Origin: Candidatus Staskawiczbacteria bacterium RIFOXYB1_FULL_38_37
GTDB taxonomy: Bacteria > Patescibacteriota > Minisyncoccia > Minisyncoccales > Staskawiczbacteraceae
Assembly (NCBI GenBank): GCA_001822075.1
Contig: MHPK01000003.1
Coordinates: forward strand, 9,437 to 73,436
Direction of reading: 5' to 3'
DNA: 64,000 bases
This document shows, piece after piece, positions 3,973 to 57,750 of this stretch. Numbering within the stretch: position 1 is the stretch's first letter; every line of letters starts with the position of its first letter. The notes beneath the pieces were generated by a model, which saw only the letters and a list, made by a program, of their open reading frames with translations, had not been told where the DNA came from and made no database searches. The position numbers were made by a program, and so were the translations under genes.

Positions 3973-5013
3973 ATGAAAAATATAATAAACACAATCAAGA
4001 AGCTAAATAAAAACACAATAATCGTAGCAATTGCCGTAATAGGAATAATTGTTGTCGGCGTATTAATCGCAAAACCAAACTTTTCTAATCTAATCGGTTC
4101 TGGGGTGTCTGCAAAGGAGGTTGCGCAAAAATCATTAGATTATATAAATAACAATGGACTTAGTCAGACGCCAGCAACATTATCAGGAGAAGTGAGCGAA
4201 GAATCAGGATTAATAAAATTCAAGGTTAAAATGGGCGCCAACGAGTTTGACTCATATGCGACCAGAGACGGAAAATTGTTATTTCCACAGGTATTCAATA
4301 TGGGTGATAAAAAAGCAGAAACAGCAAGCAATCAGCCATCAGGTGAGCAAAAACAACAGGTAGCTTCTTCTGTAACAAAGTCTGACAACCCCGTTCTTGA
4401 ATCATATATAGTTGCAAGATGTCCGTATGGCTTGCAGATGCAAAGAGCGATGAGCGAGGCAATTAAGAGTATGCCCGATTTAGGCAAATATATGAAAGTT
4501 AGATATATTGGATCTGTTACAAACGATGGGAAGAATATAACCGCTATGCACGGGGAGGCTGAAGCAAAAGAAAATTTGAGGCAAATTTGCATAAGAGAAG
4601 AGCAACCTGAAAAATATTGGAATTATGCCGCTTGTCAAATGAAATCATCGGGTCAGGAAGTAGCCTGTGAAAAATCTACAGGAGTTGATTCTTCAAAACT
4701 TAATTCTTGTATGTCGGACTCGAACAGGGGCGTAGCTTACGCAAAGAAAGATTTTGAGGGGCAAGATAAATATAGTGTTTCTGGCTCGCCAACAATGGTT
4801 TTAGGAAATGCAGTAATATCTGAAGATAGTTTTGGGGGAAGGTCTGCTGACGGAATAAAATCGATGATTTGCTCTGGATTTAATAATCAGCCAAGCTTTT
4901 GCACAACAAAATTAAGCACAAGTCCGGCGGCAACAAGTTTTTCTGAAAGTGTAACATCGGGTTCCGCAGCTCCAGCTTCCAATAGCGGATCTGGTTGCCA
5001 CGCAGCACAGTAA
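3973..5013 (+). CDS. membrane-anchored thioredoxin-fold protein (monothiol CPYG)
   Basis: N-terminal TM helix; ARCPYG active-site-like motif and cis-Pro-type SGSPTMVLGN; Ser/Ala-rich tail. Confidence 0.55.
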   Translation: MKNIINTIKKLNKNTIIVAIAVIGIIVVGVLIAKPNFSNLIGSGVSAKEVAQKSLDYINNNGLSQTPATLSGEVSEESGLIKFKVKMGANEFDSYATRDGKLLFPQVFNMGDKKAETASNQPSGEQKQQVASSVTKSDNPVLESYIVARCPYGLQMQRAMSEAIKSMPDLGKYMKVRYIGSVTNDGKNITAMHGEAEAKENLRQICIREEQPEKYWNYAACQMKSSGQEVACEKSTGVDSSKLNSCMSDSNRGVAYAKKDFEGQDKYSVSGSPTMVLGNAVISEDSFGGRSADGIKSMICSGFNNQPSFCTTKLSTSPAATSFSESVTSGSAAPASNSGSGCHAAQ

Positions 5014-5017
5014 ATAG

Positions 5018-6229
5018 ATGATAGATGAAGTAAAAATAAGAAAAGATTTCCCGATATTTGATAAAAATATAAATGGCAAACCCGTTGTGTATTTCGATTC
5101 AGCCTGCATGAGTCTAAAGCCCAGACAGGTTGTTGAGGCGATGAGTGAATACTATTTTGACTACCCTGCGTGTGCAGGGAGAAGCTCTCATCGCCTCGGA
5201 GAAATGGCGACTAAAAAAATTAAAGAAACACGCCAGTCTGTAGCTCAATTCATAAACGCCAAGAGCGAAAAGGAGATTGTTTTTACCAGAAATACGACAG
5301 AGTCAATAAATTTAGTCGCCAACTCCTTTGATTTGAAGGCAGGGGATTTAGTCCTTACTACTGATAAAGAACATAATTCAAATCTTATTCCTTGGCAACT
5401 GTTATCAAAACGAAAATCAATAAGACATGAAATTGTAAAATCGAAAGAGGATGGCGAGTTTGATGTGGAATTGTTTAAGGAGATGGTTAAGGGAGCAAAA
5501 CTGGTTTCAATGGTACATAGGTCTAATCTGGATGGAACCGCCATTCCCGCCAAGGAAATTATTAAGATTGCACACGAGAATGGTGCGCTGGTTTTATTAG
5601 ATGCCGCTCAAAGCATTCCTCATCAAAAGGTTGACGTGAAAGATTTGGATGTTGATTTTCTTGCTTTTTCTGGGCATAAGATGCTGGGGCCGACCGGAAC
5701 AGGTGTTCTGTATGGAAAATATAAATTATTGGAGGAACTTGAGCCGTTTTTGGTTGGCGGAGATACAGTGGAATATTCCACATATAAAGAATACAAAATG
5801 CTTTTGCCTCCGGAAAAATTTGAGGCGGGGCTTCAGGATTACGCAGGGATCATCGGGCTGGGAGTGGCTGTAAAATACTTACAGTTAGTGGGGTTTGATG
5901 ATATCCAAGATCACGAGTTTAAGTTAAATAGATATATAACAGAAGAGTTAATTAAAATTCCCAGGATTAAGATTATTGGCCCTACTAATTCTGCCTTGAG
6001 ATCTGGTATTATTTCTTTTTATATAGAAGGCTTAAATATGAATCAGTTTGCTGTGATGTTAGATAGCATGTCTAATGTGATGATTCGCTCGGGGAGGCAC
6101 TGCGTGCATTCATGGTTTGATGCGAGGGGAATAATAAATTCAGCAAGAGTTTCCTTGTATTTTTACAATACAATGAAAGAAGCTAAAATTTTTGTTGAAA
6201 GCATTAACAAAATAATTAAAATTATATAA
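5018..6229 (+). CDS. sufS: cysteine desulfurase, class V aminotransferase (SufS/CsdA-like)
   Basis: PLP-lysine motif FSGHKMLGPTGTGVLY and catalytic-Cys motif RSGRHC. Confidence 0.9.
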   Translation: MIDEVKIRKDFPIFDKNINGKPVVYFDSACMSLKPRQVVEAMSEYYFDYPACAGRSSHRLGEMATKKIKETRQSVAQFINAKSEKEIVFTRNTTESINLVANSFDLKAGDLVLTTDKEHNSNLIPWQLLSKRKSIRHEIVKSKEDGEFDVELFKEMVKGAKLVSMVHRSNLDGTAIPAKEIIKIAHENGALVLLDAAQSIPHQKVDVKDLDVDFLAFSGHKMLGPTGTGVLYGKYKLLEELEPFLVGGDTVEYSTYKEYKMLLPPEKFEAGLQDYAGIIGLGVAVKYLQLVGFDDIQDHEFKLNRYITEELIKIPRIKIIGPTNSALRSGIISFYIEGLNMNQFAVMLDSMSNVMIRSGRHCVHSWFDARGIINSARVSLYFYNTMKEAKIFVESINKIIKII

Positions 6230-9285: not shown

Positions 9286-9516
9286 CAAGAGGAGTAATCC
9301 TCGTGTCGTTAATTAAAACGACAAACTACTTACGCCACTAGCATGCAGCCGGTGGCGTTTGTGGTTTATGAAACTAGCAAATGCAAAAATTGAATGGATT
9401 GCATGGATTATTAGCAACCAATTTGGTTGCTTGAAGGACTTTTGTATCGAGTGGGAAAAGATTCAAATTAATAGGTTGGTTGTGCCGCCGATTCCGAAAG
9501 GATCGGCGGTTTTGTT
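9286..9516 (+). ncRNA. candidate structured transcript (or mRNA of a 54-aa ORF 9368..9532) upstream of the recombinase
   Basis: Follows a strong promoter. Hairpins: GAGGA-GTAA-TCCTC, GTCGTT/AACGAC, CGCCAC/GTGGCG, ATGCAA/TTGCAT, AGCAACC/GGTTGCT. Ends in a GAAA-looped hairpin plus T-run. Confidence 0.3.
9485..9516 (+). terminator. intrinsic terminator/attenuator hairpin
   Basis: CCGCCGAT(T)CC-GAAA-GGATCGGCGG followed by TTTTGTT; ends 3 nt before the recombinase ATG. Confidence 0.55.
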
Positions 9517-9518
9517 AT

Positions 9519-10421
9519 ATGAAACTATATGATGGGATAAAACAATTTAATCAGTGGCGGGCGCTAAAGGTGAAACGCATAGACGGATATGACCTTGATT
9601 TGAGGCAGTTTTGCATATTCGTAGGCAACAAGGAAATTGAGGACGTAACAATTCAAGAGATAGTGGCTTGGCTTGGCTGGTATAAAAAACTGGATTTTGC
9701 CGCTTGGACTGTGCTGAAAAAGGCAATGGCTCTGCGTAAATTCTTTGAGTACTATGGCAGAATGAAATTTGATGTTGTGGATTACTGGTTAATTCCAATG
9801 CCACGGAAGGAGTTTACAATGCCCCGTGTCTGCACAGAGCAGACGTATAGGCAACTATTAAGCGTTATACCAAAGAAAAGCACGACCTATTATCATCTAC
9901 GAAATAGGTGTTTGATAAATCTTGTTTGGGACACCGGAGCAAGGCTGGGTGAAATTGTCGCCTTGAACACGGGTGACTTGGATCTAAAAAATCATTCAAT
10001 AGTTATTAAAACGGAAAAGAGCCGAGGAATGCGACCATTCAGAAAAATACCTTACGGAAAAGAAAGTGCGGTTTCGATGAGAAAATGGATGAGAAAACGA
10101 ACGGAAATTGCGAAAGAGCGGGATTTGCCACAACCGGAAGCTTTGTTTATTGGACTGAAAGGCGGCAGTGGCATCGCCGGCAGAAGATTGGCAATGTGTG
10201 CGGCCGGAGAAATATTTAGAAAATATTCAAACAAAGCCGGCCTGCCGTACGTGAATGCACACTCGCTTAGGCATCACTTCGGCACGGATCTGGCCAAAAG
10301 GGGATTCAATAATTCGTTAATTTCAGAGGCACTGGGCCACAGCCAGCTGTCGTCATCATTCCAGTATACGCAAGTAAATAATGAGGATCTTGAGTTCGCA
10401 TTGCGAAAAAGGTTGAATTAA
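9519..10421 (+). CDS. tyrosine site-specific recombinase / integrase (XerC/D-like)
   Basis: N-terminal SAM-like domain; catalytic pattern ARLGEI (R), HSLRHHF (HxxR), LGHS (H), FQYTQ (Y); ATG 9519 used because the TTG 9480 extension lies in the hairpin. Confidence 0.85.
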   Translation: MKLYDGIKQFNQWRALKVKRIDGYDLDLRQFCIFVGNKEIEDVTIQEIVAWLGWYKKLDFAAWTVLKKAMALRKFFEYYGRMKFDVVDYWLIPMPRKEFTMPRVCTEQTYRQLLSVIPKKSTTYYHLRNRCLINLVWDTGARLGEIVALNTGDLDLKNHSIVIKTEKSRGMRPFRKIPYGKESAVSMRKWMRKRTEIAKERDLPQPEALFIGLKGGSGIAGRRLAMCAAGEIFRKYSNKAGLPYVNAHSLRHHFGTDLAKRGFNNSLISEALGHSQLSSSFQYTQVNNEDLEFALRKRLN

Positions 10422-14814: not shown

Positions 14815-16269
14815 ATGGCGTATAAAGCAACAATTGGATTAGAAATACACGCAGAGCTAAAAACAAATTCAAAAATGTTTTGCTCTTGTAAAAATGACCC
14901 GGATGAAAAACGGCCTAATTTTAATATCTGCCCGGTTTGTACTGCCCAGCCCGGAACCTTGCCTGTGGCCAACGAAGAAGCAATAAAAAAAGTTATAAAA
15001 ACCGGACTGGCTTTAAATTGCAAAATAGCCGAAGATTCAAAATTTGACCGCAAAAATTATTTTTATCCGGATCTTCCAAAAGGCTACCAGATTTCGCAAT
15101 ACGACCAGCCGTTATGCGAGGGAGGTTATTTAGAAGTTGAGGGACGGAAAATAAGAATTACAAGAATACACTTAGAAGAAGATACAGGGAGTTTGGTTCA
15201 CCCGGAAGGAGCAGATTATTCTTTGGTTAATTTAAATAGGGCTGGAATTCCTTTAATGGAACTGGTTACAGAACCCGACATAACATTTGGCAGAGAGGCA
15301 AGGTTATTTGCCCAAGAGTTCCAGTTTATTTTAAGGTACTTGGGAGTTTCTTCAGCTGATATGGAAAAGGGCCAAATGAGGGTGGAGGTTAATATAAGCA
15401 TAAGCAAAAATGATAAACTTGGAACGAAGGTTGAAATTAAGAATTTGAACTCTTTTAAAGTTGTTGAAAAAGCAGTTGATTTTGAAATTCAAAGGCAGAA
15501 AGAGCTTTTAGAAAATAAAGAAAAAATTATTCAGGAAACAAGAGGCTGGCATGATAAAAAAGAAATTACTTTTTCCCAGCGGGAAAAAGAAGGAGCGCAC
15601 GACTACAGATATTTTCCAGAGCCTGATTTACCGCCGATGCATTTTGACAAAGAATATATAAATGAGATAAAATTAAGTATGATAGAATTACCCGAACAAA
15701 GAAGAGAGAGATTCAAAAAAGAGTATGGTTTAGACGACCCCTCTGTTGAATTTTTTGTTGCAAACAAGGATTTGGGAGAATATTATGAAAAAGTTGTCTC
15801 TGAATTTGAAGAGTGGACTGAAGAGCAGGAAAATGATAAGGCTCACAAAAAGGCCGCCAAGCTTGTGGCAAATTATTTAATAACAGACATATTGGGGCTT
15901 TTGTCGGGCGCGCAATTTGTTGAGGCTGATTTTAAGATTACAGCAGAAAATTTTGCTGAATTTATAAAAATGATTTACAGGGATGAAGTTTCAAGCAAGA
16001 CAGCCAAAATGGTTTTAGCTGAAATGTTTAATACAGGGGGAGACCCCTCATCAATTGTTGACGAAAACAACTGGAGGCAGATGTCTGACGATTCAGAGCT
16101 GGAAAAAATTATAAAAGAAGTTATTGAAAAAAATCCAAACGCAGTTGAGGATTATAAGTCAGGCAAACAAAATTCTTTGCAATTTTTAGCAGGACAGGTT
16201 ATGAAAGAAACAAGGGGTACGGCAAAACCAGATAAAGTGCAAAAATTACTTTTAGAATTGCTGAATTAA
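14815..16269 (+). CDS. gatB: Asp/Glu-tRNA amidotransferase subunit B
   Basis: GLEIHAEL, CPVCTAQPGTLPV, C-terminal YqeY-like tail. Confidence 0.95.
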   Translation: MAYKATIGLEIHAELKTNSKMFCSCKNDPDEKRPNFNICPVCTAQPGTLPVANEEAIKKVIKTGLALNCKIAEDSKFDRKNYFYPDLPKGYQISQYDQPLCEGGYLEVEGRKIRITRIHLEEDTGSLVHPEGADYSLVNLNRAGIPLMELVTEPDITFGREARLFAQEFQFILRYLGVSSADMEKGQMRVEVNISISKNDKLGTKVEIKNLNSFKVVEKAVDFEIQRQKELLENKEKIIQETRGWHDKKEITFSQREKEGAHDYRYFPEPDLPPMHFDKEYINEIKLSMIELPEQRRERFKKEYGLDDPSVEFFVANKDLGEYYEKVVSEFEEWTEEQENDKAHKKAAKLVANYLITDILGLLSGAQFVEADFKITAENFAEFIKMIYRDEVSSKTAKMVLAEMFNTGGDPSSIVDENNWRQMSDDSELEKIIKEVIEKNPNAVEDYKSGKQNSLQFLAGQVMKETRGTAKPDKVQKLLLELLN

Positions 16270-16313: not shown

Positions 16314-16355
16314 AGCCCCGAATTTGCATCGTTGCAACGATGCAAATTCGGGGCT
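16314..16355. terminator. 42-nt perfect palindrome, likely bidirectional terminator
   Basis: AGCCCCGAATTTGCATCGT-TGCA-ACGATGCAAATTCGGGGCT between convergent gatB and 16372..16767; A-run upstream, T-rich downstream. Confidence 0.7.
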
Positions 16356-16371: not shown

Positions 16372-16767
16372 TCAGAACGGCCGGGGAATGGGGTCGCCGA
16401 AAGTCGGGCTGTACGCGTTGTTCGCCCTGTCCAAAATATGCAAACTATCAATGACGAACGCGTCCGGAAGATTGGTTACAGCTCCCGAACCTTTTGGGCA
16501 TATTTTCCGCAAAAAATGGCTAAAAGCCGGGTCAATCTCGCCATAACGTATCCTGACTTCGCCGTTTTCAAGAACGGCGACTGTAATGCGATTGCTATGC
16601 GACCATCGGCATAACGTTTTCCGGCTGGCATGGACAAACCCTTCCTCACCGTGCATGGTTTCGACCCATTGCAAGCCAGTGATGTTTACGAGCCCGAAGG
16701 AACGTAAATGGCGCTTAAGCTCGTGGAAAATGTGCCCTTCTTTTTTGTGGGCGAGGGTGTTGCGCAT
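16372..16767 (-). CDS. hypothetical protein (131 aa) in a GC-richer patch
   Basis: Longest ORF of the patch; strong SD (AAGGAG, 7-nt spacer) before ATG 16767; no motif recognised. Confidence 0.6.
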   Translation of the reverse strand: MRNTLAHKKEGHIFHELKRHLRSFGLVNITGLQWVETMHGEEGFVHASRKTLCRWSHSNRITVAVLENGEVRIRYGEIDPAFSHFLRKICPKGSGAVTNLPDAFVIDSLHILDRANNAYSPTFGDPIPRPF

Positions 16768-21430: not shown

Positions 21431-23245
21431 TTACTTTTTTTCTTGGATTTCTTTTTTAATTTTTTCAATAAATTTTTCTAAAGGCATTTGACCATCGTCT
21501 CCTTTTCCGCGGGCTCTTACAGAAACAGCAGAAGCTGAAATTTCTTTATCGCCCAAAATCAAAAGATAGGGGATTTTTTGCATTTCAGCTTCCCTGATTT
21601 TTTTACCCAAAGTTTCATTTTCATCTCTTAACTCAACGCGCAAATTATTATCTTTTAATTTTTTAATAATTTCTTTGGCATAGTCTGCGTGCTTTTCAGA
21701 AATAGGTATTACAGAAACCTGAATGGGGGACAGCCACAAAGGAAACGCCCCTTCGTATTTTTCAATCAAAAATGCCATTGTTCTTTCAACAGCCCCTATT
21801 GAAGAGCGGTGTATCACGATTGCTTCTTTTTCTTTGCCGTCTGAATCTGTGTAAACTAAATTAAATCTTTTTGGACCCACAAAATCATATTGCACAGTAA
21901 AGGCTGTATCTTCTTTGCCAGAAAAATTTTTCATTTGGATATCTATTTTTGGCCCGTAAAAAGCAGCCTCATTTTCTGCCTCAAAAAACGGGGCGTTCTT
22001 TTCTTTCAAAACTTTTCTTAAGATATTTTCTGCAAAATCCCATGCCCTATCATCTTTGTAATATTTTTTTGAATCTCTTTTATCTCCCAAAGACAATCTG
22101 TATCTGTAATCAACTCCGGATTTTAATTCAAATATGCCGGCCATATCTTCTATTAATTTAAGAGCCAAGTTTATTTCTTTTTCTGCCTGGTCTTTTTGGC
22201 AAATTATGTGAGAGTCGGCAAGGCAAAAACATCTTACCCTTGCCAGGCCGGTCAGTTCTCCAGATTTTTCATACCTGTATTGTTTAGCTAATTCTGCAAT
22301 TCTAAATGGCAGTTCTCTGTAAGACCTTGGTTTTGCCAAATAAAGCTGGTAGTGGTGGGGGCAGGTCATAGGCCTTAAAATAAGTTCTTCTTCGTCAACT
22401 TTCATCACAGGATACATGGTGTCTTTATAATAAGGATAGTGGCCGGATTTTTTAAATAAATCAACTTTTGCCAAATCCGGAGTGCATACATGTTTGTATC
22501 CTCTTTTTATTTCTTCGTCAACAATCAATCTTTCCAGCTCTCTTCTTATGGCAGTGCCCTTTTCTGTATATAGGGGTAATCCTTTTCCAACAATATCAGA
22601 AAATATGAACAGGTCTAGTTTTTTTCCTAAAACTCTATGGTCGCGTTTTTCTGCCTCCTCCTGCATTTTTACATAATCTGAAAGCTCTTTTTCAGTTGTA
22701 AAAGCCAAACCATAAATGCGGGTTAACATTTTATTTTTTTCAGAGCTCTTCCAGTAAGCCCCTGCAATTCTTGTGAGCTTAAAAGCTTTTGGGTTTATTT
22801 CTGAAGTGTTTTTTACATGAGGCCCTTTGCACAAATCTGTAAAAGCTGGTGGGATGTCCGACATCCCACCACTGGTGGGATGTCGGACATCCTTTAAAAC
22901 TATCGTGGTTATGTAAACAGAAACATTTTTGCCGGGCAGTTCTTTTATCAGTTCTAATTTGTATGGCTGGTCTTTAAATAATTTTTTGGCCGCCAGTTTT
23001 GTGATATCTTTTTTGATAAATTTTTGGTCTTGTAAAATCAGCTCTTTCATGCGAGCTTCAACTTTTTTGATAAACTCGTCTTGTCCGCCTTCGCTAATGG
23101 CTTGGGCGGGTAATAAAAAGTCGTAGTAAAATCCGTTTTCAATTGCCGGGCCCATTCCTAATTTTGCTTTTGGGTGCAATTCAAGCACAGCTTGCGCCAT
23201 TATATGCGATAGGGAATGACGAATGTTTTCAATATTTTCTGCCAT
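21431..23245 (-). CDS. thrS: threonyl-tRNA synthetase (no TGS domain)
   Basis: Editing-domain start HSLSHIMAQAV, DLCKGPH, class II core and anticodon-binding domain. Confidence 0.95.
   Translation of the reverse strand: MAENIENIRHSLSHIMAQAVLELHPKAKLGMGPAIENGFYYDFLLPAQAISEGGQDEFIKKVEARMKELILQDQKFIKKDITKLAAKKLFKDQPYKLELIKELPGKNVSVYITTIVLKDVRHPTSGGMSDIPPAFTDLCKGPHVKNTSEINPKAFKLTRIAGAYWKSSEKNKMLTRIYGLAFTTEKELSDYVKMQEEAEKRDHRVLGKKLDLFIFSDIVGKGLPLYTEKGTAIRRELERLIVDEEIKRGYKHVCTPDLAKVDLFKKSGHYPYYKDTMYPVMKVDEEELILRPMTCPHHYQLYLAKPRSYRELPFRIAELAKQYRYEKSGELTGLARVRCFCLADSHIICQKDQAEKEINLALKLIEDMAGIFELKSGVDYRYRLSLGDKRDSKKYYKDDRAWDFAENILRKVLKEKNAPFFEAENEAAFYGPKIDIQMKNFSGKEDTAFTVQYDFVGPKRFNLVYTDSDGKEKEAIVIHRSSIGAVERTMAFLIEKYEGAFPLWLSPIQVSVIPISEKHADYAKEIIKKLKDNNLRVELRDENETLGKKIREAEMQKIPYLLILGDKEISASAVSVRARGKGDDGQMPLEKFIEKIKKEIQEKK
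22848..22892. repeat. GC-rich palindrome GGTGGGATGTCCGACATCCCACC plus a partial second copy, in frame in thrS
   Basis: Read directly; translates on the minus strand as HPTSGGMSDIPPA, inserted before the conserved FTDLCKGPH. Confidence 0.85.
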
Positions 23246-27033: not shown

Positions 27034-27669
27034 ATGATTTATCCGAATTTTAGTGAAGAAAAAAAGTTGTGGAAAAAGGGATATAAGTTGGTTGCAGGAT
27101 TAGATGAAGCCGGCAGAGGCCCTTTGGCTGGGCCAGTTGTGGCTGCGGCCGTAATTTTTAATTTTAAATTTCCAAATAAATTTTTAATTAAACAATTTCC
27201 AATGATAAAAGATTCCAAAAAAATGACAGTTAAACAACGGGAAGCTACGTATGAATTTTTGACTAATCACCCGGATATAAAGTGGGGAGTGGGCATAGTT
27301 TCAGAAAAAGTTATAGATAAAATAAATATTTTAGAAGCCACAAAACTGGCAATGAAAAAAGCAGTCGGTGGGGTGTCGGACACCCCACCGGACTTTTTGC
27401 TTTTAGACGGGAATTTTAAATTAGAGAATATTAATTTGCCGCAAAAAAGCATTATAAAAGGGGATTCAAAAGTTTTTTCAATTTCTGCCGCTTCCATTAT
27501 AGCAAAGGTGACGCGGGACAGAATAATGCAGAAATACCATAAAAAATATCCTGAATATAATTTTTTAAAACATAAGGGATATGGCACAAAAGCTCATTTT
27601 GCCAGCTTGCAAAAATTCGGGCCGTGTAAAATACACAGAAAAAGTTTTTACCCCGTTAAATTTTGTTGA
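27034..27669 (+). CDS. rnhB: ribonuclease HII
   Basis: GLDEAGRGPLAGPVV and LLLDGN motifs. Confidence 0.9.
   Translation: MIYPNFSEEKKLWKKGYKLVAGLDEAGRGPLAGPVVAAAVIFNFKFPNKFLIKQFPMIKDSKKMTVKQREATYEFLTNHPDIKWGVGIVSEKVIDKINILEATKLAMKKAVGGVSDTPPDFLLLDGNFKLENINLPQKSIIKGDSKVFSISAASIIAKVTRDRIMQKYHKKYPEYNFLKHKGYGTKAHFASLQKFGPCKIHRKSFYPVKFC
27366..27391. repeat. 26-nt GC-rich palindrome CGGTGGGGTGTCGGACACCCCACCGG, in frame in rnhB
   Basis: 12-bp arms; codon-checked translation GGVSDTPP; identical copy at 33897-33922. Confidence 0.9.
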
Positions 27670-32845: not shown

Positions 32846-33538
32846 ATGAAGGAGTTTGAAAAACTTGAAAAAAAATTAGGATTGGATTTTAAAAATAAAA
32901 AGCTTTTAATGCAGGCATTTGTCCACAGGTCTTATCTTAACGAAAATCCAAGTTTTGAGTTAGAGCACAATGAAAGGCTGGAATTTTTGGGAGACGCCGT
33001 AATGGAGCTTATTGTAACAGAAAACCTTTATAAAAAGCATCCAGAAAAAGCAGAAGGGGAGCTGACCAATTGGCGGGCAGCTTTAGTTAATGCAAAAATG
33101 CTGACTTCTGTGGCAGAAGGGCTGGGTTTTAATGATTTTCTTTTGTTATCAAGAGGAGAAACCAAAGAAACAGGCAAAGCAAGAGCATATATTTTAGCCA
33201 ATACTTTTGAGGCCTTGGTGGGAGCTCTATATCTTGATTCAGGATATGATATTACAGCAAAATTTCTTAAAAAATATTTACTTGTGAATTTGGCAGAAAT
33301 TATAAAAACCGGCTCTTATAAAGATTCAAAATCGCATTTTCAGGAGTTGGCGCAGGAAAAAGCGGGTATTACACCTTCATATAAAGTTGCAAAAGAGTCG
33401 GGTCCCGACCACGAGAAAAAATTTATAGTAGGAATTTTTCTGCAAGACGAAATGGTGGCTGAAGGAGAGGGCTCTTCAAAGCAGGAGGCAGAAGAAGCAG
33501 CGGCAACAGAGGCGTTAAAAGTAAAAAAGTGGAAATAA
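32846..33538 (+). CDS. rnc: ribonuclease III
   Basis: Signature NERLEFLGDAV; C-terminal dsRBD. Confidence 0.95.
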   Translation: MKEFEKLEKKLGLDFKNKKLLMQAFVHRSYLNENPSFELEHNERLEFLGDAVMELIVTENLYKKHPEKAEGELTNWRAALVNAKMLTSVAEGLGFNDFLLLSRGETKETGKARAYILANTFEALVGALYLDSGYDITAKFLKKYLLVNLAEIIKTGSYKDSKSHFQELAQEKAGITPSYKVAKESGPDHEKKFIVGIFLQDEMVAEGEGSSKQEAEEAAATEALKVKKWK

Positions 33539-33549
33539 AATAAAATAAA

Positions 33550-34095
33550 ATGCTTACAATAAGATTAACAAGAAAAGGTAAAAAAAATCAGCCGTTTTTC
33601 AGGGTGGTTTTAATAGACAAAAGGAGGTCTGCCAAAGGCGGAAGGGCTGTTGAGGCGCTTGGAAATGTTGACCCTCTTACAAAAAGAAAAAATTTAAAAA
33701 AAGACAGAATTTTATACTGGATTTCAAAGGGAGCGCAAACTTCAGACACAGTGCATAATTTGTTGATTTCTGAAAAAATTATAGAAGGCAAGAAAATTCA
33801 TGTTTCAAAATTAAGCAAGAAGAAACAGGCAGACCTGGCTGCGCAGGCAGGTCTGGCTGCGCAGGCAGGAATAGCCAAAGAAAAATCCGCAAAAAGCGGT
33901 GGGGTGTCGGACACCCCACCGGCTAAAGAGTCAAAAACAGCAGAAGCAAAAGCCCTAGAAACCGGAGCTCCGGTTGAAATACTGCCAGCCCCAGTTGAAC
34001 CAGCCGCGGCTGAAACTCCAGCAGAACCCGAAAAACCGGCAGAACCCGCCTCCGCTGAAAGCTCCGGCGAGGCAAAGCAGCCCCCAACAGCATAA
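33550..34095 (+). CDS. rpsP: ribosomal protein S16 with ~100-aa repeat-built C-terminal extension
   Basis: MLTIRLTRKGKKNQPFFRVV start; Ala/Glu/Pro-rich tail. Confidence 0.9.
   Translation: MLTIRLTRKGKKNQPFFRVVLIDKRRSAKGGRAVEALGNVDPLTKRKNLKKDRILYWISKGAQTSDTVHNLLISEKIIEGKKIHVSKLSKKKQADLAAQAGLAAQAGIAKEKSAKSGGVSDTPPAKESKTAEAKALETGAPVEILPAPVEPAAAETPAEPEKPAEPASAESSGEAKQPPTA
33827..33871 (+). repeat. 18-nt direct repeat x2.5 (CAGGCAGRYCTGGCTGCG) in the rpsP tail
   Basis: Codon-checked: encodes QADLAAQAGLAAQAG; CAGACCTG and CAGGTCTG are reverse complements. Confidence 0.85.
33897..33922. repeat. second copy of the 26-nt palindrome, in frame in rpsP
   Basis: Identical to 27366-27391; translates GGVSDTPP. 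Confidence 0.9.
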
Positions 34096-35013: not shown

Positions 35014-35087
35014 CATAACACATAACATAGAACACATAACAAAAAACTCCGTCGTTTTGTTCCATGTTTTATGTTCCATGTTCCATG
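35014..35087 (+). repeat. heptad-repeat element copy A (CATAACA-type arm, spacer, ATGTTCC-type arm)
   Basis: CATAACACATAACATAGAACACATAACA ... TTTTGTTCCATGTTTTATGTTCCATGTTCCATG; its last ATG is the trmD start. Confidence 0.85.
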
Positions 35088-35825
35088 ATAAAGTTTGATA
35101 TTATTACAATTTTTCCGGAAATTTTTAAGTCCTATTTAGGCGAGAGTTTAATTGCGCGGGCGCAGAAAAAAAAGCTTATAAAAATAAATATTCATAATTT
35201 AAGAAAATGGACAAATGACAGCCATAAAACTGTTGATGACAGGCCGTTTGGCGGGGGATTGGGAATGGTTCTAAAAGTAGAACCAATTTTTAAAGCAGTA
35301 AAACAAATAAAAAAAAGTCCCGCCGCAGCGGGATCCCGCTATGGCGGGACAAAAGTAATTTTATTTACTCCGCGCGGAAAAAAGTTTGACCAAAAATTAG
35401 CTAATAAGCTTTCTAAATTAGACCAAATAATTTTTATTTGCGGAAGATACGAGGGCGTTGATGAAAGGGTGGCAAAAAAAATAGCTGACATGGAAATTTC
35501 AATTGGAGACTACGACTTAATGGGCGGGGAATTGCCAGCTATGGTGGCAATAGAAACAATTTCCAGATTAATTCCAGGAGTTTTGGGCAAGCCCCAATTA
35601 TTAAAAGAGAGAATAACAAAATCCGGCGGATTTATTGAATATGCCCAATACACCCGCCCGCCAAAATTTTTTGTTAACCTGCCAAAATTTCAAAAGAAAT
35701 TTAGAGGGGCAAAAAAATTTAGGCGGGCGAAGCCCGAAGTTTGGTCTGTCCCTAGAGTGCTCTTGTCTGGAGACCACAAAAAAATAGAGGAATGGAAAAA
35801 AAAGCATAACAAAATCATTGAATAA
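35085..35825 (+). CDS. trmD: tRNA (guanine37-N1)-methyltransferase
   Basis: FDIITIFPEIF, GRYEGVDERV, GGELPAMV motifs; ATG 35085 is aa 8 of the track ORF. Confidence 0.95.
   Translation: MIKFDIITIFPEIFKSYLGESLIARAQKKKLIKINIHNLRKWTNDSHKTVDDRPFGGGLGMVLKVEPIFKAVKQIKKSPAAAGSRYGGTKVILFTPRGKKFDQKLANKLSKLDQIIFICGRYEGVDERVAKKIADMEISIGDYDLMGGELPAMVAIETISRLIPGVLGKPQLLKERITKSGGFIEYAQYTRPPKFFVNLPKFQKKFRGAKKFRRAKPEVWSVPRVLLSGDHKKIEEWKKKHNKIIE
35317..35350. repeat. 34-nt GC-rich nested palindrome in frame in trmD
   Basis: GTCCCGCC-GC-AGCGGGATCCCGCT-AT-GGCGGGAC; codon-checked translation SPAAAGSRYGGT in the variable loop before KVILFTPRG. Confidence 0.85.
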
Positions 35826-48412: not shown

Positions 48413-48578
48413 GTTAAAGGGGTCAGGTACCTTTGATTGTCATTCTAATCGTGATACACTTAATTAATGCCAAGGGTTTTACGAGTATAAGGGTTAAGGG
48501 GAGGGTTAAGGGGTCAGGTACCTTTGATTGTCATTCTAATCGTGATACACTTAATTAATGCCAAGGGTTTTACGAGTA
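48413..48578 (+). repeat. tandem duplication (75 + 74 nt, ~92-nt period) of the RayT left end
   Basis: GTTAA(A)GGGGTCAGGTACCTTTGATTGTCATTCTAATCGTGATACACTTAATTAATGCCAAGGGTTTTACGAGTA occurs twice. Copy 2 carries the real ATG (48558). In copy 1 the same ATG is followed by a stop after 7 codons. Confidence 0.9.
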
Positions 48579-49245
48579 GATATTGGAAATCAAATTTACC
48601 ATGTCCTTAATCGGGCAAATGCCCGTTTGCCGATTTTTTTTAAAGAACAAGATTATCAGTTGTTTGAGAACATTCTTGAAAATGGCCGTGAAAAGTTTGA
48701 TATGCGTATTTTAGCTTACTGCTTGATGCCGAATCATTTTCACTTAGTCTTGCAACCTAAGGAAGATGGCGGTTTGCAAAGGTTTATGCAGTGGGCGACC
48801 TTAACACACACGCAACGTTGGCACAGCCAAAACAAAACCATAGGCTCGGGGCACCTGTATCAGGGCAGATACAAATCGTTTATCATACAAGAAGACAACC
48901 ACTTATTGGCAGTCATCAGATATGTGGAGCGCAACCCGCTCCGAGTTAATATTGTCAAACAAGCAGAAGATTGGCGCTTTTCAAGTTTGTACCGCAGGAT
49001 GTTTCCAAAAGAATTTAAAATGCATAAAAGAATTTTGTCAGACCTGCCGATTGATATGCCCAAAGATTATCTCGCTTTTGTTAACCAACCGCAAACAAAC
49101 GAAGAAATCGCGGCTATACGTTATTCGGTTAACCGCGGCAGACCTTTTGGCAATTGTGAGTGGGCTGATAAAATTATTAAGGCGTTCGGGCTTGAATCAA
49201 CCGTACGGAGCAGGGGCAGGCAAATCAAAGGTACCTGACCCCTTT
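48416..49245 (+). mobile_element. RayT gene bracketed by 23-bp inverted repeats
   Basis: AAAGGGGTCAGGTACCTTTGATT (48416-48438, and one A shorter at ~48508-48529) versus its exact reverse complement AATCAAAGGTACCTGACCCCTTT (49223-49245); each holds the AGGTACCT palindrome. Confidence 0.65.
48558..49238 (+). CDS. REP-associated / IS200-like Y1 (HUH) tyrosine transposase (RayT-like)
   Basis: YHVLNRANARLPIF, HUH motif LMPNHFHLVL, catalytic-Tyr region IRYVERNPL. Confidence 0.85.
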   Translation: MPRVLRVDIGNQIYHVLNRANARLPIFFKEQDYQLFENILENGREKFDMRILAYCLMPNHFHLVLQPKEDGGLQRFMQWATLTHTQRWHSQNKTIGSGHLYQGRYKSFIIQEDNHLLAVIRYVERNPLRVNIVKQAEDWRFSSLYRRMFPKEFKMHKRILSDLPIDMPKDYLAFVNQPQTNEEIAAIRYSVNRGRPFGNCEWADKIIKAFGLESTVRSRGRQIKGT

Positions 49246-49336
49246 GTTTGACCCCTTTGTTCGACCCCCCCTTTGTTCGACCCCTTTGTTCCTTTGTTCT
49301 TTGTTCCCTTCTTTGTTCCCTTTGTTCCTTTGTTCA
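49238..49336 (+). repeat. degenerate pyrimidine-rich short tandem repeats (GACCCCTTTGTT decaying to CCTTTGTT)
   Basis: Read directly; directly upstream of the 49340 promoter. Confidence 0.8.
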
Positions 49337-55742: not shown

Positions 55743-55803
55743 TTCTTTGACAAAGTCCTCGTAAGAGGCAAACTCCGGCTATGCCGGGAAAGGTTGGTGT
55801 AGG

Positions 55804-56193
55804 ATGTCACAGTGTGAAAGAATCAGTGGTGGGCCCGATAAGTTTGATCTGGTGGTTGCTTTGTTCACAGGAAGAAGGGTTTGGTTTAGGTTGGAATCAA
55901 AACCAGATGGAGAGAAATTGGCAGTCATAATAACCTCAATAATGCTGGAAGAGGCTCTGCCAGAAGTGCATATGGTGCCGATGGAGGGTAGGTATGACCA
56001 CCTTATTATCGGCGGATACTTTGTGCTTCCTTGCAAGGAGGGCGAAGCCTTCAAATATCAGGACTTTAAGGGATTTTATAATCCCGGGCCTGCATATAAG
56101 AATGGTTATCTCGACATCGAAGATTCCGTCACTGTTGGGGACCTCACCGGCACCAGTAATGATGGTGGTTTTAGTTCTTACCTTGGCGAGTGA
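55804..56193 (+). CDS. hypothetical protein (129 aa), GC-richer island
   Basis: ORF track; followed by a terminator; no motif recognised. Confidence 0.55.
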   Translation: MSQCERISGGPDKFDLVVALFTGRRVWFRLESKPDGEKLAVIITSIMLEEALPEVHMVPMEGRYDHLIIGGYFVLPCKEGEAFKYQDFKGFYNPGPAYKNGYLDIEDSVTVGDLTGTSNDGGFSSYLGE

Positions 56194-56210
56194 CTCGTCG
56201 CTTTTACCCA

Positions 56211-56240
56211 GCCCGCATCACAAGATGCGGGCCTTTTTTA
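56211..56240 (+). terminator. intrinsic terminator
   Basis: GCCCGCAT-CACAAG-ATGCGGGC followed by CTTTTTTA. Confidence 0.8.
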
Positions 56241-56305
56241 TTCCAGCTACTAAGTGCAACACACAACCCATCACGGATCAAACGCATATTTTATTGTGCG
56301 ACAAA

Positions 56306-56354
56306 GGCATTGACAATGCCTTCTGATGTGATAAGCTAAATAATCATTGAAAAT
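56306..56354 (+). promoter_or_regulatory. promoter/operator block, copy 2
   Basis: GGCATTGACA (TTGACA 56310-56315), TGATAAGCT extended -10, ...TAAATAATCATTGAAAAT; same length and geometry as copy 1. Confidence 0.6.
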
Positions 56355-56695
56355 TATTAAAACCATTGATTCATGTCCCTGAGGCGTCAGCCGAAGGGGT
56401 GGGCATGATTCGCCCCGTCATTCGACAGGGCAAGGTGGCTTATGCATTAGTGTAAGCCCGGCTTCCTCCGTAATCATAGGATAATCGTTGGAGTCCGCCT
56501 CCGCTAAAGCTATGGCGCGACAAAGTCGATGAGAGTGTCCGTAAATTTTATTTGCGGAAACAAAGGTGGTACCGCGAGATAACCTCTCGTCCTTTGAGCA
56601 TAATTTATTTATGCCTAAAGGATGGGAGGTTTTTTGTTTTTGGGAGCATCCCAAGAGAACTTTCCAATAGCTCTTTTCCAATAAGGGGAAAAGCC
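56345..56695 (+). ncRNA. ~350-nt GC-rich structured leader / RNA element, unassigned
   Basis: Hairpins GGGGTG...CGCCCC (56396-56416), GGCTTA...TAAGCC (56437-56458), GGAG-TCCGC-CTCC, CGAGA-TAACC-TCTCG; no convincing ORF. Confidence 0.35.
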
Positions 56696-57184
56696 ATGAG
56701 TACCGTTTCTTCTGACAGGTTTCGGGTTTGGAAGATCATTGTGGCCGGACCAGGAATTAGAGAGTGTTTCCGTAGGGTGCTTAGCGAGGCCGGGCGCGCT
56801 GTAATTCCCGAGGAAACTCAATTTGATCTGGTCAAGGTTACGGTTGCTGACCTCGGATTTAAAGAGGGCGCACAACTTAATCAAATTTATGTTCGTGCTG
56901 AGAAGTTAGGGTTGGAATTATGTCCGCCTGAAGTTGGCGAGCAGCTGGAGTTTCAGTATGATGGGCAGTGTATAAAGCAATCCGAAGGCGCGTCGATTCT
57001 TATTGCCATGGAGGCCATCTATCTTGCGAATGTCCCCGGATACGCTGGTCACTATGTCGTATTCTTCTTGGCCGACGAGTCGACCGACCAGTATGCCAAG
57101 GCTCAACTTTTCCGCAAATTCATTAATCCAGGCCATGTTTGGGCTCCAGATGATGAATGGGTGTTTGTCCTTCCGCACAAATAG
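56696..57184 (+). CDS. hypothetical protein (162 aa), GC-richer island
   Basis: In-frame ATG (aa 49) of track ORF 56552..57184, preceded by AAGGGGA; the upstream part runs through the structured leader. Confidence 0.55.
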   Translation: MSTVSSDRFRVWKIIVAGPGIRECFRRVLSEAGRAVIPEETQFDLVKVTVADLGFKEGAQLNQIYVRAEKLGLELCPPEVGEQLEFQYDGQCIKQSEGASILIAMEAIYLANVPGYAGHYVVFFLADESTDQYAKAQLFRKFINPGHVWAPDDEWVFVLPHK

Positions 57185-57202
57185 CGAGTAGTTGCAAAAG
57201 GT

Positions 57203-57234
57203 TGGGAGTAATCCTTTAAAACTCCCATTTTTTT
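57203..57234 (+). terminator. intrinsic terminator
   Basis: TGGGAGT ... ACTCCCA followed by TTTTTTT. Confidence 0.7.
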
Positions 57235-57268
57235 CAACAGTCCCCTTTATGTTCAATGGAGGTGTGTT

Positions 57269-57680: not shown

Positions 57681-57683
57681 CGC

Positions 57684-57715
57684 GAGCGCTGGCCCAATAA
57701 CCAGCGCTCTTTTTT
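57684..57715 (+). terminator. intrinsic terminator
   Basis: GAGCGCTGG-CCCAATAA-CCAGCGCTC followed by TTTTTT. Confidence 0.8.
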
Positions 57716-57750
57716 GTGTTTGCGACGGCTAGACCTGCATAAGATGAGAT

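What the first reader, a model, noticed from the sequence alone, without database searches (positions are those of the whole stretch)
22848..22892. Variant of the same palindrome, 1.9 tandem copies, in frame in thrS on the opposite coding strand
GGTGGGATGTCCGACATCCCACC is followed by a partial second copy, CTGGTGGGATGTCGGACATCC. It lies in minus-strand thrS and translates as DVRHPTSGGMSDIPPA. This sits immediately before the conserved FTDLCKGPH motif, where ThrS enzymes are normally compact. It differs from the rnhB/rpsP copy by compensatory arm changes (G to A paired with C to T), so the hairpin is preserved. That argues for selection on DNA or RNA structure rather than on the peptide.
Basis: partly seen in the sequence, partly recalled or inferred. 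Interest (0 to 1): 0.7.

Follow-up and report, generated by a model that had tools for sequence, protein, structure and literature searches.

The report
Mobile DNA hairpin translated inside thrS
The palindrome inside the threonyl-tRNA synthetase gene is a copy pair of a small mobile hairpin repeat (a REP-type element, whose matching tyrosine transposase gene was found in related genomes but not in this window) that in these tiny candidate-phyla bacteria sits in frame inside essential genes and is read out as an extra surface loop.

Summary
Window 22848-22892 holds a 23-nt GC-rich palindrome plus a truncated second unit. Together they form a perfect 20-bp hairpin inside minus-strand thrS. They are translated in frame, with 23 codons where 81 of 91 relatives have 4. 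Two more copies lie in frame in rnhB and rpsP; chance expects none.

The element is not private to this genome. The same palindrome recurs in other Ca. Staskawiczbacteria (Patescibacteria) contigs, in uvrC, recG, dprA, tsaD, miaA, a comF-like gene and rRNA spacers.

In relatives it directly flanks a roughly 240-aa Y1/HUH transposase gene and also sits inside it. That gene's best structural match is the E. coli REP-associated tyrosine transposase (4ER8). Eight transposase lineages each carry their own palindrome variant inside and downstream of the gene; seven also carry it upstream.

So this is a REP/REPIN-type element with a cognate RAYT, carried as an in-frame passenger in a tolerant loop.

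However, pairing is not always compensated, and concerted evolution of the repeat family explains much of the "covariation".

Intragenic REPs are already known (Rickettsia, Opitutus). The Patescibacteria setting and the transposase-internal copy appear new.

The parts
21431..23245 (-). thrS (threonyl-tRNA synthetase, 604 aa), the host gene of the insert
   Evidence: ORF. Pfam tRNA_SAD, tRNA-synt_2b and HGTP_anticodon on the identical called gene. 100% identical to the protein named threonine--tRNA ligase of Ca. Staskawiczbacteria RIFOXYC1_FULL_37_43.
22844..22912 (-). Whole in-frame insert relative to orthologs: 23 codons (ITTIVLKDVRHPTSGGMSDIPPA) where relatives have 4 (e.g. ESGK or TNGx)
   Evidence: Codon-level comparison with the empty site in L012/P0003. 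Alignment of 70 ThrRS. Loop-length census. In the AlphaFold model residues 116-134 are coil, residues 125-130 fall below pLDDT 50 (the 121-130 block averages 47), and the flanking strands E107-115 and E135-138 lie in blocks averaging 74-95.
22848..22870 (.). REP unit A: full 23-nt palindrome GGTGGGATGTCCGACATCCCACC (11-nt arms, centre C on the + strand), read on the coding strand as GGMSDIPP
22873..22892 (.). REP unit B: TGGTGGGATGTCGGACATCC (centre G on the + strand, so inverted relative to unit A). Its outer 4 nt are missing or decayed. It is read in another frame as DVRHPT(S).
   Evidence: (D9).
22852..22892 (.). Dimer hairpin: perfect 20-nt arms around one base. It folds as a 19-bp stem with a 3-nt loop.
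   Evidence: I2, 100% complementary. RNA MFE -43.9 kcal/mol for the 101-nt context, z = -6.1. As DNA, -25.9 kcal/mol, z = -7.2.
27363..27394 (+). Sister copy in rnhB: AGTC-GGTGGGGTGTCGGACACCCCACC-GGACT, translated as VGGVSDTPPD
   Evidence: The same site is occupied in L015 and L018.
33895..33923 (+). Sister copy in the C-terminal tail of rpsP: AGC-GGTGGGGTGTCGGACACCCCACC-GGCT, translated as SGGVSDTPPA

Best explanation
The thrS palindrome is an inverted dimer (REPIN-like) of a REP-type repeat. This is a short GC-rich hairpin element that belongs to a family co-evolving with a dedicated single-strand-DNA Y1/HUH tyrosine transposase (a RAYT-like protein) in Patescibacteria.

Shown here:
- The repeat is dispersed in several Ca. 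Staskawiczbacteria genomes.
- In relatives, copies of it directly flank the transposase gene, and one lies in frame inside it.
- Different transposase lineages carry different, matching palindromes.
- The thrS copy is an insertion in a beta-turn of the editing domain. It keeps the frame and is modelled as a disordered surface loop.

Inferred:
- The hairpin forms on single-stranded DNA. It is recognised, cut and pasted by the RAYT, as for E. coli TnpA(REP) and IS200/IS605 ends.
- These genomes are about 87-90% coding, so most landings are in genes. Only landings that keep the reading frame, sit in tolerant loops, tails or linkers, and encode a harmless peptide survive. The favoured frame gives Gly-Gly-x-Ser-Asp-x-Pro-Pro.
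- Hairpin integrity is maintained because the family is continually renewed or homogenised from hairpin-competent copies, not because ThrRS needs it.
- The element is therefore a translated passenger in thrS. Its most likely side effects are a strong mRNA and DNA hairpin and a floppy 19-residue loop next to the editing-site CxxxH motif.
For: Non-chance repeat: 3 loci in the window against 0 expected.

Same core elsewhere: 8 exact sites in Ca. Staskawiczbacteria MAG JAPLZC01 and 21 metagenome loci, of which 17 are contigs of 32-38% GC.

Host sites: uvrC (two sites), recG, dprA, tsaD, comF-like, miaA, rnhB, thrS and rpsP; also the 16S-23S spacer and a region upstream of 23S.

REP-RAYT architecture:
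- L027: palindromes 20 nt before the start, inside, and 7 nt after the stop of a 244-aa gene.
- The same arrangement occurs in L018 and L002 and in L035.
- Lineage-specific palindromes are found in L036, L037, L039, L040 and L041.

The gene is a Y1 transposase: Pfam Y1_Tnp 28.8 bits against a cut-off of 23. HUH (NHLHL) and YVHxN motifs are conserved in 32 aligned homologs. The AlphaFold model has pLDDT 83.7 and pTM 0.82. Its best Foldseek hit is 4ER8_A, the REP-associated tyrosine transposase bound to a REP hairpin (E = 1e-5), followed by ISDra2 and IS608 TnpA.

The family has 1187 relatives. Every one of those that a source names by taxon is labelled Patescibacteria group or Ca. Staskawiczbacteria. 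The gene lies in a conserved neighbourhood (S1 - RAYT - lactamase_B - gyrA), i.e. it is RAYT-like in being single-locus and vertically inherited.

Covariation over 36 distinct copies: score 0.209 against 0.147 in shuffles (0 of 500 reach it) and 0.06-0.09 in slid controls. The unbiased first flank pair is C-G 15, T-A 10, T-G 4.

Insert in a tolerant loop.

Frame filter: 8 distinct coding sites use the GGxSDxPP frame, 3 use VGCxTxH and 0 use the Trp frame (p = 0.012).

Intragenic REPs, often dimers encoding 20-30 aa and often in repair genes, are documented elsewhere (PMC3733652).
Against: - No cognate RAYT of this clade lies in the 64-kb window. tblastn finds only a 28%-identical Y1_Tnp gene at 48558-49238, which is flanked by unrelated inverted repeats. 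For this genome the transposase link is therefore by homology of the repeat only.
- The RAYT-like protein scores 33 bits against NCBIfam REP_Tyr_transpos, below the 80-bit cut-off. It has only a weak sequence match to solved TnpA structures (E = 0.016).
- There is no GTAG or CGTC tag. The flank consensus is AGTC...GACT.
- Transposition has not been observed.
- At some sites the net length gain is smaller than the element. The uvrC GIY-YIG loop gains about 3-5 aa, which a simple insertion does not explain.
- The thrS insert is shared by two non-sister ThrRS lineages, while closer relatives lack it. This needs parallel insertion at one site, or repeated clean loss.
Confidence: 0.8

Rival explanations
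1. It is a host-selected regulatory RNA structure. On this view the 19-20-bp GC-rich stem in the thrS mRNA (and in the mRNAs of other housekeeping genes) is kept because it tunes expression. It could be an RNase III cleavage site, a ribosome pause site or an mRNA stabiliser.
For: - The stem is very stable: -43.9 kcal/mol, z = -6.1.
- It is retained as a perfect stem in the L010 ortholog despite four amino-acid changes.
- rnc (RNase III) is encoded in the window at 32846-33538.
- G.U pairs outnumber A.C mismatches 5 to 2 at the variable pair.
Against: - The same element sits in unrelated genes, in two reading frames, in both orientations and in rRNA spacers.
- Closest ThrRS relatives (90% identical) lack it, or have a different insert at the same turn.
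- Its sequence, not just its structure, tracks the flanks of a transposase gene.
- No Rfam family matches.
Confidence: 0.1
2. The palindromes arise and are kept perfect purely by replication template-switching (quasipalindrome correction or fold-back synthesis), without any transposase. The flanks become palindromic because they are copied from the other arm.
For: - Locus-specific flanks are often inverted repeats of each other: AGTC/GACT, AGTT/AACT, AAGC/GCTT, GATT/AATC.
- The centre base flips between orthologous copies: window rnhB has G and L018 rnhB has C.
Against: Template switching cannot explain an identical 23-nt core at more than 15 unrelated loci in several genomes. It also cannot explain its systematic placement upstream of, inside and downstream of a Y1 transposase gene with lineage-matched sequence. 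It may still contribute to keeping the arms matched.
Confidence: 0.05
3. The selected unit is the peptide. On this view GG(V/M)SD(T/I)PP is a functional motif added to many proteins, for example a modification, sorting or interaction site.
For: Eight of 11 distinct coding sites use the same frame. The peptide is hydrophilic and rich in Pro and Gly.
Against: - Codons are essentially invariant, whereas a peptide-level constraint would allow synonymous variation.
- Other sites use a different frame (VGCRTPH in tsaD, miaA and the RAYT; DVRHPT in thrS unit B).
- Non-coding copies exist.
- The thrS peptide changed at 4 of 16 residues in L010 while the stem stayed perfect.
Confidence: 0.03
4. It is a DNA uptake signal or another genome-wide protein-binding site, analogous to USS/DUS sequences that also occur inside genes with a frame bias.
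For: It is genus-restricted and over-represented, occurs within coding regions and shows a frame bias.
Against: - Density is far too low: 3 per 64 kb here and 8 exact copies in a whole MAG. By my recollection, USS and DUS occur roughly once per kb.
- It is a full palindrome and is tied to a transposase gene.
Confidence: 0.02

Closest known systems
REP / REPIN elements with their RAYT (TnpA-REP) transposases of Proteobacteria (E. coli YafM/TnpA(REP), PDB 4ER8; Pseudomonas REPINs)
   Same: - A 20-40-nt GC-rich imperfect palindrome, dispersed in multiple copies and often occurring as inverted dimers that fold into a longer hairpin.
- A Y1/HUH transposase gene at a single, syntenic locus, flanked by the cognate palindromes.
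- The palindrome sequence co-varies with the transposase lineage.
- The best structural match of the transposase model is 4ER8.
   Different: - There is no GTAG tag; the flank consensus is AGTC/GACT.
- Copies lie mostly inside genes and are translated.
- Dimer units abut with a 3-nt spacer, instead of the tens of nt that I recall for Pseudomonas REPINs.
- An extra in-frame copy sits inside the transposase gene itself.
- The protein is below the NCBIfam RAYT cut-off (33 against 80 bits).
- The host is Patescibacteria, and copy numbers are low (tens at most).
Intragenic REPs and Rickettsia palindromic elements (RPE), as catalogued by Di Nocera et al. 2013 (PMC3733652)
   Same: - Palindromic repeats inserted in frame in genes for known, probably functional proteins, as singles or dimers encoding about 20-30 aa.
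- Replication and repair genes are conspicuous hosts. The paper reports uvrA and uvrB here and names the UvrABCD and RecBCD proteins; this work finds uvrC, recG, dprA and rnhB.
- They are interpreted as neutral loops or linkers.
   Different: - The sequence family and the tag differ.
- The CGTC/RPE elements have no dedicated transposase according to that paper, whereas this family has one.
- RPE-1-type elements are much longer.
- In those organisms intragenic copies are the minority; here they are the majority.
IS200/IS605 family ends (IS608, ISDra2 TnpA)
   Same: The catalytic fold is the same (Foldseek hits 2XMA, 2A6M, 2VJV). Recognition of sub-terminal DNA hairpins on single strands is the likely shared chemistry.
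   Different: The repeats here are not ends of an IS that moves with its transposase. The transposase gene sits at one conserved locus, and only the hairpins are dispersed.
Coding palindromes and GC-rich hairpin elements in organelle genes (Nematomorpha mitochondrial coding palindromes, PMC6649704; sponge mitochondrial hairpin elements, PMC2800124)
   Same: GC-rich hairpins in an AT-rich compact genome that are tolerated in frame within protein genes.
   Different: These are unrelated lineages with no associated transposase. The Nematomorpha repeats are long (up to 284 bp) and gene-specific rather than a dispersed family.

Membership tests
REP-RAYT (REPIN) system | A Y1/HUH tyrosine transposase of the IS200/IS605 superfamily is associated with the repeat | tested here: met
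   Pfam Y1_Tnp 28.8 bits against a cut-off of 23. HUH and Tyr motifs are conserved. The Foldseek top hit is 4ER8_A, E = 1e-5, TM (target) 0.64.
REP-RAYT (REPIN) system | The protein reaches the curated RAYT equivalog model (NCBIfam NF047646 REP_Tyr_transpos) | tested here: not met
   33 bits against a cut-off of 80 for the L027 protein. The window's own, different Y1_Tnp gene scores 73 against 80.
REP-RAYT (REPIN) system | The transposase gene is flanked by copies of the dispersed palindrome | tested here: met
   In L027 the copies lie at -20 and +7 nt, and in L035 at -51 and +11 nt. L018 has one on each side; in L002 only an upstream and an internal copy are visible, because the contig ends inside the gene. 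Lineage-specific palindromes flank the gene on both sides in L036, L039, L040 and L041. L037 has only the internal and downstream copies.
REP-RAYT (REPIN) system | A short (20-40 nt) GC-rich imperfect palindrome present in many dispersed copies | tested here: met
   The core is 23 nt, or about 31 nt with flanks. There are 3 loci in 64 kb here and 8 exact sites in MAG JAPLZC01, plus 1 degenerate copy (4 mismatches, L002:350). In all, 36 distinct copies were collected. Whole-genome copy number for this organism was not obtainable.
REP-RAYT (REPIN) system | A conserved GTAG (or CGTC) tetranucleotide at one end of the palindrome | tested here: not met
   The alignment consensus is AAGTC-core-GACTT, with no GTAG or CGTC at either end.
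REP-RAYT (REPIN) system | Extragenic location | tested here: not met
   All 3 window copies and at least 11 distinct sites elsewhere lie inside intact ORFs.
REP-RAYT (REPIN) system | The cognate RAYT is present in the same genome as the thrS copy | tested here: inconclusive
   It is absent from the 64-kb window. The rest of the genome could not be fetched. It is present in the related MAG JAPLZC01 (P0127).
REP-RAYT (REPIN) system | RAYT-dependent cleavage or mobility of the hairpin | not testable with these tools
   This needs biochemistry or population time-series data.
Rickettsia palindromic elements (RPE) | In-frame insertion of a palindromic repeat in genes for functional proteins | tested here: met
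Rickettsia palindromic elements (RPE) | RPE sequence family: CGTC-tagged for RPE-4/6 per PMC3733652. By my recollection, RPE-1 is about 100-150 nt and the elements are confined to alphaproteobacterial hosts. | tested here: not met
   There is no CGTC tag, the unit is 23 nt and the host is Patescibacteria. No direct sequence comparison with RPEs was run.

The most novel reading that the evidence does not exclude
A Patescibacteria-specific clade of RAYT-like transposases keeps a translated copy of its own cognate hairpin at one fixed position inside the transposase gene. It also keeps copies just downstream of the gene and, in all but one lineage, just upstream.

All copies change together from lineage to lineage. 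This holds in 9 of 10 loci examined at DNA level, and all 120 listed homologs show a variable segment at that position. This would make the internal hairpin a functional cis-element, either an autoregulatory site or a protected master copy.

In these streamlined genomes the dispersed copies persist mainly as translated loops inside essential genes, where deletion is hard. That would be a distinct life-style for REP-type replicators.
Probability: 0.35. Interest if true: 0.7.

Novelty: new variant of a known kind. Interest (0 to 1): 0.5.

Why it matters
- It explains a class of odd, GC-rich, Gly/Pro-rich insertions in housekeeping proteins of candidate-phyla-radiation genomes as REP-type mobile hairpins. 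They are not lineage-specific functional domains or assembly errors. This matters for annotating and aligning CPR proteins.
- It extends REP-RAYT systems to Patescibacteria. No paper in the searchable library links them.
- It shows what happens to such elements when almost no intergenic space exists: they live in frame inside genes.
- The transposase-internal copy offers a testable handle on how RAYTs and their hairpins stay matched.

Tried and rejected
- **Rfam.** Nothing at gathering threshold for the window except 3 tRNAs, and only sub-threshold miRNA noise at the hairpin. Rfam on the loci with apparently non-coding copies identified only neighbouring rRNA and tRNA genes.
- **Viral contigs.** No match to the palindrome, so there is no sign of a phage origin.
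- **High-GC hits.** L003 (Acidimicrobiia), L014 (67% GC) and L029 (56% GC) were set aside as unrelated or chance hairpins.
- **The window's own Y1_Tnp gene (48558-49238)** was considered as the mobilising enzyme. It was rejected as the cognate because it is only 28% identical over 85 aa to the flanked clade and has different flanking repeats.
- **PDB sequence search with a RAYT profile** gave only a weak ISDra2 match. The fold search was needed.
- **Cluster-member look-up** did not reveal whether the window's genome has the cognate RAYT.
- **Simple-insertion model.** I could not define a target site or exact element ends. Empty and filled sites compared (thrS, uvrC, rnhB) come from genomes too diverged, and the loops differ in length by less than the element at uvrC.
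- **CRISPR, intein, intron and DGR readings** were dismissed early. There is no array, the element is too short, and no retroelement is present.
Full report
**1. What is in the sequence**

Window 22848-22870 reads GGTGGGATGTCCGACATCCCACC. This is 11-nt complementary arms around a single centre base. After ACT a second unit follows, GGTGGGATGTCGGACATCC, which breaks off at 22892.

The repeat finder reports the 26-nt period (D9). It also reports a perfect inverted repeat with 20-nt arms, 22852-22871 / 22873-22892 (I2). The centre base is C in the first unit and G in the second on the same strand, so the two units are in inverted orientation. The '1.9 tandem copies' are therefore an inverted dimer that folds into one long hairpin.

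As RNA, the 101-nt context folds at -43.9 kcal/mol with a 19-bp stem (z = -6.1 against 200 shuffles). As DNA it folds at -25.9 kcal/mol (z = -7.2).

The element lies in the 604-aa minus-strand ORF 21431..23245, which is ThrRS. It is translated as ...VLKDVRHPTSGGMSDIPPAFTDLCKGPH.

Allowing 3 mismatches, the 23-mer occurs at three loci in the window, against 0.00 expected by chance:
- thrS;
- 27367-27389 in rnhB (+ strand, ...KKAVGGVSDTPPDFLLLDG...);
- 33898-33920 in the tail of rpsP (+ strand...KSGGVSDTPPAKE...).

**2. It is an insertion in a normally tight turn**

The protein is 100% identical to the ThrRS of Ca. Staskawiczbacteria bacterium RIFOXYC1_FULL_37_43. This is a Patescibacteria/CPR genome of about 37% GC.

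In an alignment of 70 relatives the site is a 2-4-residue turn (VSIY-T-NG-x-FTDLCKGPH). The loop is 4 residues in 81 of 91 relatives that could be parsed. It is 23 residues only in the window protein, its fragment P0020, and P0005.

Codon-level comparison with an 87-90%-identical relative that has the empty site (L012: GAA TCT GGC AAA) shows 23 codons in place of 4. These are window 22844-22912, a net gain of 57 nt.

An AlphaFold model (mean pLDDT 79) places residues 116-134 as coil. Residues 125-130 fall below pLDDT 50, and the 121-130 block averages 47. The coil lies between strands E107-115 and E135-138, which sit in blocks averaging 74-95. The insert is thus an unstructured extension of a beta-hairpin, just before the editing-domain C139xxxH143 motif.

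The same turn carries other, unrelated short inserts in other relatives: PAFAKASARQG in P0002 and P0004, and further ones in P0006, P0010 and P0036. It is a permissive hotspot.

**3. The repeat is a family shared by related genomes and sits mostly inside genes**

A scan of one genome per species found the core at 8 sites in another Ca. Staskawiczbacteria MAG (JAPLZC01). It found one site in a high-GC actinobacterium, which I regard as unrelated.

A metagenome scan found 21 loci, 17 of them on contigs of 32-38% GC. A mismatch-tolerant search of all fetched DNA added diverged copies.

Host sites:
- the uvrC GIY-YIG loop, and a second uvrC site before RIECYD;
- recG, dprA, tsaD, a comF-like phosphoribosyltransferase, miaA, rnhB, thrS and rpsP.

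Non-coding copies lie downstream of 16S rRNA (L020) and upstream of 23S (L001).

Among 11 distinct coding sites, 8 are read as GG(V/M)SD(T/I)PP and 3 as VGC(R/P)T(P/S)H. None uses the third, Trp-containing frame (chi-square p = 0.012). The truncated thrS unit uses the second frame type (DVRHPT).

The nucleotide core is almost invariant, while host genes, reading frame and orientation differ. This rules out selection on the peptide.

**4. The decisive context: a cognate tyrosine transposase**

In contigs L027, L018 and L002 several copies cluster around one gene. In L027 a palindrome lies 20 nt before the start codon. A second lies in frame inside the gene (KKLVGCPTPHQLEY). A third lies 7 nt after the stop codon.

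The gene has these properties:
- It encodes a 244-aa protein with IYHVVSR, an HUH motif (NHLHLI) and YVHTN.
- It passes Pfam Y1_Tnp, 'Transposase IS200 like' (28.8 bits, cut-off 23).
- It is below the NCBIfam RAYT equivalog cut-off (33 against 80 bits).
- Its AlphaFold model (pLDDT 83.7, pTM 0.82) has as best PDB match 4ER8_A, 'REP associated tyrosine transposase bound to a REP hairpin' (E = 1e-5). The ISDra2, IS608 and IS200 transposases follow.

The family has 1187 relatives in the protein database. Every one that a source names by taxon is labelled Patescibacteria group or Ca. Staskawiczbacteria. It often sits in a conserved neighbourhood, S1 protein - this gene - metallo-beta-lactamase-fold protein - gyrA. 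This fits the vertically inherited, single-locus habit described for RAYTs.

I fetched seven further lineages. Each has its own palindrome at the RAYT gene:

| Locus | Palindrome | Copies seen |
|---|---|---|
| L035 | GGTGGGACGTCCGACRTCCCACC | upstream, inside, downstream |
| L036 | ATTGCTACGTCNGACGTAGCAAT | upstream, inside, downstream |
| L037 | ATTGGGACGTCATACGTCCCAAT | inside, downstream |
| L039 | GTTCRACGTCSGACRTCGAAC | upstream, inside, downstream |
| L040 | TGCAGACGTMWKACGTCTGCA | upstream, inside, downstream |
| L041 | TACGGACGTCSGACGTCCGTA | upstream, inside, downstream |
| L038 | degenerate | internal relic only |

The L039-type palindrome also sits in frame in recG of the same MAG (L006:1463, CSTSDIEQ).

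A dispersed palindrome that flanks a Y1 transposase gene and co-varies with it is the defining architecture of REP-RAYT systems. The thrS element is therefore best read as a REP dimer (REPIN-like) of this family.

**5. How good is the 'compensatory change' argument?**

I aligned 36 distinct copies with 8 nt of flank on each side and counted pairs.

- The variable pair (positions 7 and 17) is G-C in 17 copies, A-T in 12, G.T in 5 and A.C in 2. It is associated (Fisher p = 4e-4) but not strictly compensated. In MAG JAPLZC01 alone, five of its eight exact copies are mixed (G.T or A.C, depending on the strand read), three are A-T and none is G-C.
- The flanks were not constrained by my search patterns. 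There the first outer pair is C-G 15, T-A 10, T-G 4, with 6 unpaired.
- The overall covariation score is 0.209, against 0.147 in column shuffles (0 of 500 reach it) and 0.06-0.09 when the partner is slid.

The most telling comparison is the thrS copy of L010 (ThrRS 79% identical). It reads GGATCTCCGACATCCCCCC-GTT-GGGGGGATGTCGGAGATCC, again a perfect 19-bp stem. It differs from the window's stem by exactly two double substitutions (G-C to C-G, and A-T to C-G) while four amino acids changed. Four random stem substitutions would keep a perfect stem with p about 2.5e-4.

There is a caveat. The other copy in that genome (miaA, L010:11889) carries the same TCTCCGACA variant. Part of this 'compensation' is therefore each inverted unit carrying the genome's current family variant. 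That indicates concerted evolution or re-insertion from the REP population, rather than independent compensatory mutation under selection at thrS.

The phylogenetic pattern fits this. The window ThrRS groups with insert-less P0003 and with P0002 and P0004. P0005 groups with insert-less P0018.

**6. Mechanism**

Shown:
- family membership and the transposase association;
- in-frame status and loop location;
- hairpin strength and the frame bias.

Inferred from the established biochemistry of IS200/IS605 TnpA and E. coli TnpA(REP):
- The element is handled as a single-stranded DNA hairpin by the RAYT-like enzyme.
- In a genome that is about 87% coding, most insertions hit genes.
- Only those that preserve the frame, fall in loops, tails or linkers, and encode an innocuous peptide persist.

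The mRNA hairpin could have side effects, such as RNase III cleavage or ribosome pausing. I rate a host-selected regulatory role at about 0.1.

Not explained:
- the exact element ends and target site;
- why the net length gain is smaller than the element at some sites (the uvrC GIY-YIG loop);
- the patchy distribution of the thrS insert.

No cognate RAYT is present in the window. The only Y1_Tnp gene (48558-49238) is a distant relative with its own, different flanking repeats.

**7. Comparison with what is known**

Di Nocera et al. 2013 (PMC3733652) describe GTAG- and CGTC-tagged REPs. They report REPs 'located inside genes... [quoted passage not shown] The highest numbers of intragenic repeats were found in Opitutus terrae (GTAG-tagged) and Rickettsia conorii (CGTC-tagged, corresponding to RPE-4 and RPE-6). 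In-frame REP dimers are therefore a known kind.

What differs here:
- the host phylum: a full-text search found no paper combining RAYT or REPIN with Patescibacteria;
- the absence of a GTAG or CGTC tag (the flank consensus is AGTC...GACT);
- a divergent RAYT clade;
- the predominance of intragenic copies;
- the conserved, translated copy of the cognate hairpin inside the transposase gene. It is seen as a variable segment at one position in all 120 listed homologs. In the AlphaFold model it is a low-confidence loop, residues 71-78.

No Rfam family matches, and there are no viral contig matches.

**8. Verdict**

The element is a REP/REPIN-type mobile hairpin of a Patescibacteria RAYT clade, riding in frame in a tolerant ThrRS loop.

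It is a new variant of a known kind rather than a new class. Interest is moderate (0.5). The higher-value lead is the transposase-internal hairpin and the intragenic life-style of these elements in streamlined genomes.

Noticed in passing
L027 1841-2646; L035 9928-10768; L036 6862-7653; L039 9952-10758; L040 9969-10779; L041 9933-10797: Each RAYT-like gene of this Patescibacteria clade carries its lineage-specific palindrome upstream, downstream and, in frame, at one fixed internal position. All 120 listed homologs show a variable 6-10-aa segment there (VGCPTPH, VGRPTSH, IATSDVAI, GPTSLT and others).
   Followed up: partly
window 35317-35350 (in trmD, ORF 35064-35825 +); L001 1780-1815: A second GC-rich palindrome family (GTCCCGCCGCAGCGGGAT / ATCCCGCTATGGCGGGAC) is translated in frame as SPAAAGSRYGGT in TrmD. 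A related copy lies in the 23S-5S spacer of the Staskawiczbacteria MAG JAPLZC01.
   Followed up: partly
window 33826-33870 (rpsP tail): Another imperfect palindrome with a partial repeat (CAGACCTGGCTGCGCAGGCAGGTCTG...) encodes QADLAAQAGLAAQAG. It ends 28 nt upstream of the REP copy, so the S16 C-terminal extension is built partly from repeat-derived sequence.
   Followed up: no
window 48417-49335: A different RAYT-like gene lies at 48558-49238 (Pfam Y1_Tnp 61.5 bits; NCBIfam REP_Tyr_transpos 73 bits, against a cut-off of 80). It is flanked by 19-nt inverted repeats: AAGGGGTCAGGTACCTTTG at 48417 and 48508, and its reverse complement at 49226. There is a 71-nt exact tandem duplication that includes the gene start, and a CCTTTGTTC-type tandem array at 49241-49335. 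No other copies occur in the window.
   Followed up: partly
L010 2279-2300 (rnhB of a related Staskawiczbacteria genome): At the same RNase HII loop where the window has the REP, this relative has a different perfect 22-nt palindrome, AAATCTCACGATCGTGAGATTT, in frame. Different hairpins thus occupy the same permissive loops in different lineages.
   Followed up: no
ThrRS relatives P0002/P0004 (L013 around 4146-5954), P0006, P0010, P0036: The thrS turn that hosts the REP dimer carries other, unrelated short inserts in relatives (PAFAKASARQG, NTGCLQ, IPANTGNSR, TRPEPTEGNG). These may be footprints or other repeat families.
   Followed up: no
window 16314-16355: A 42-nt perfect palindrome (AGCCCCGAATTTGCATCGTTG / CAACGATGCAAATTCGGGGCT) lies between convergent gatB (14815-16269 +) and ORF 16372-16767 (-). 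It is probably a bidirectional terminator, and it coincides with the switch in gene orientation and GC skew.
   Followed up: no
window 57799-58863; 9480-10421; 55800-58000: There is an rve-family IS transposase and a phage-type integrase. The stretch 56-58 kb has a raised GC content (0.45), suggesting an integrated mobile region.
   Followed up: no
L006 1463-1483 and 1933-1955 (recG of MAG JAPLZC01); L039: The same MAG has two paralogous RAYT-like genes (P0127 and P0179), each with its own palindrome type. recG carries one in-frame copy of each type.
   Followed up: partly
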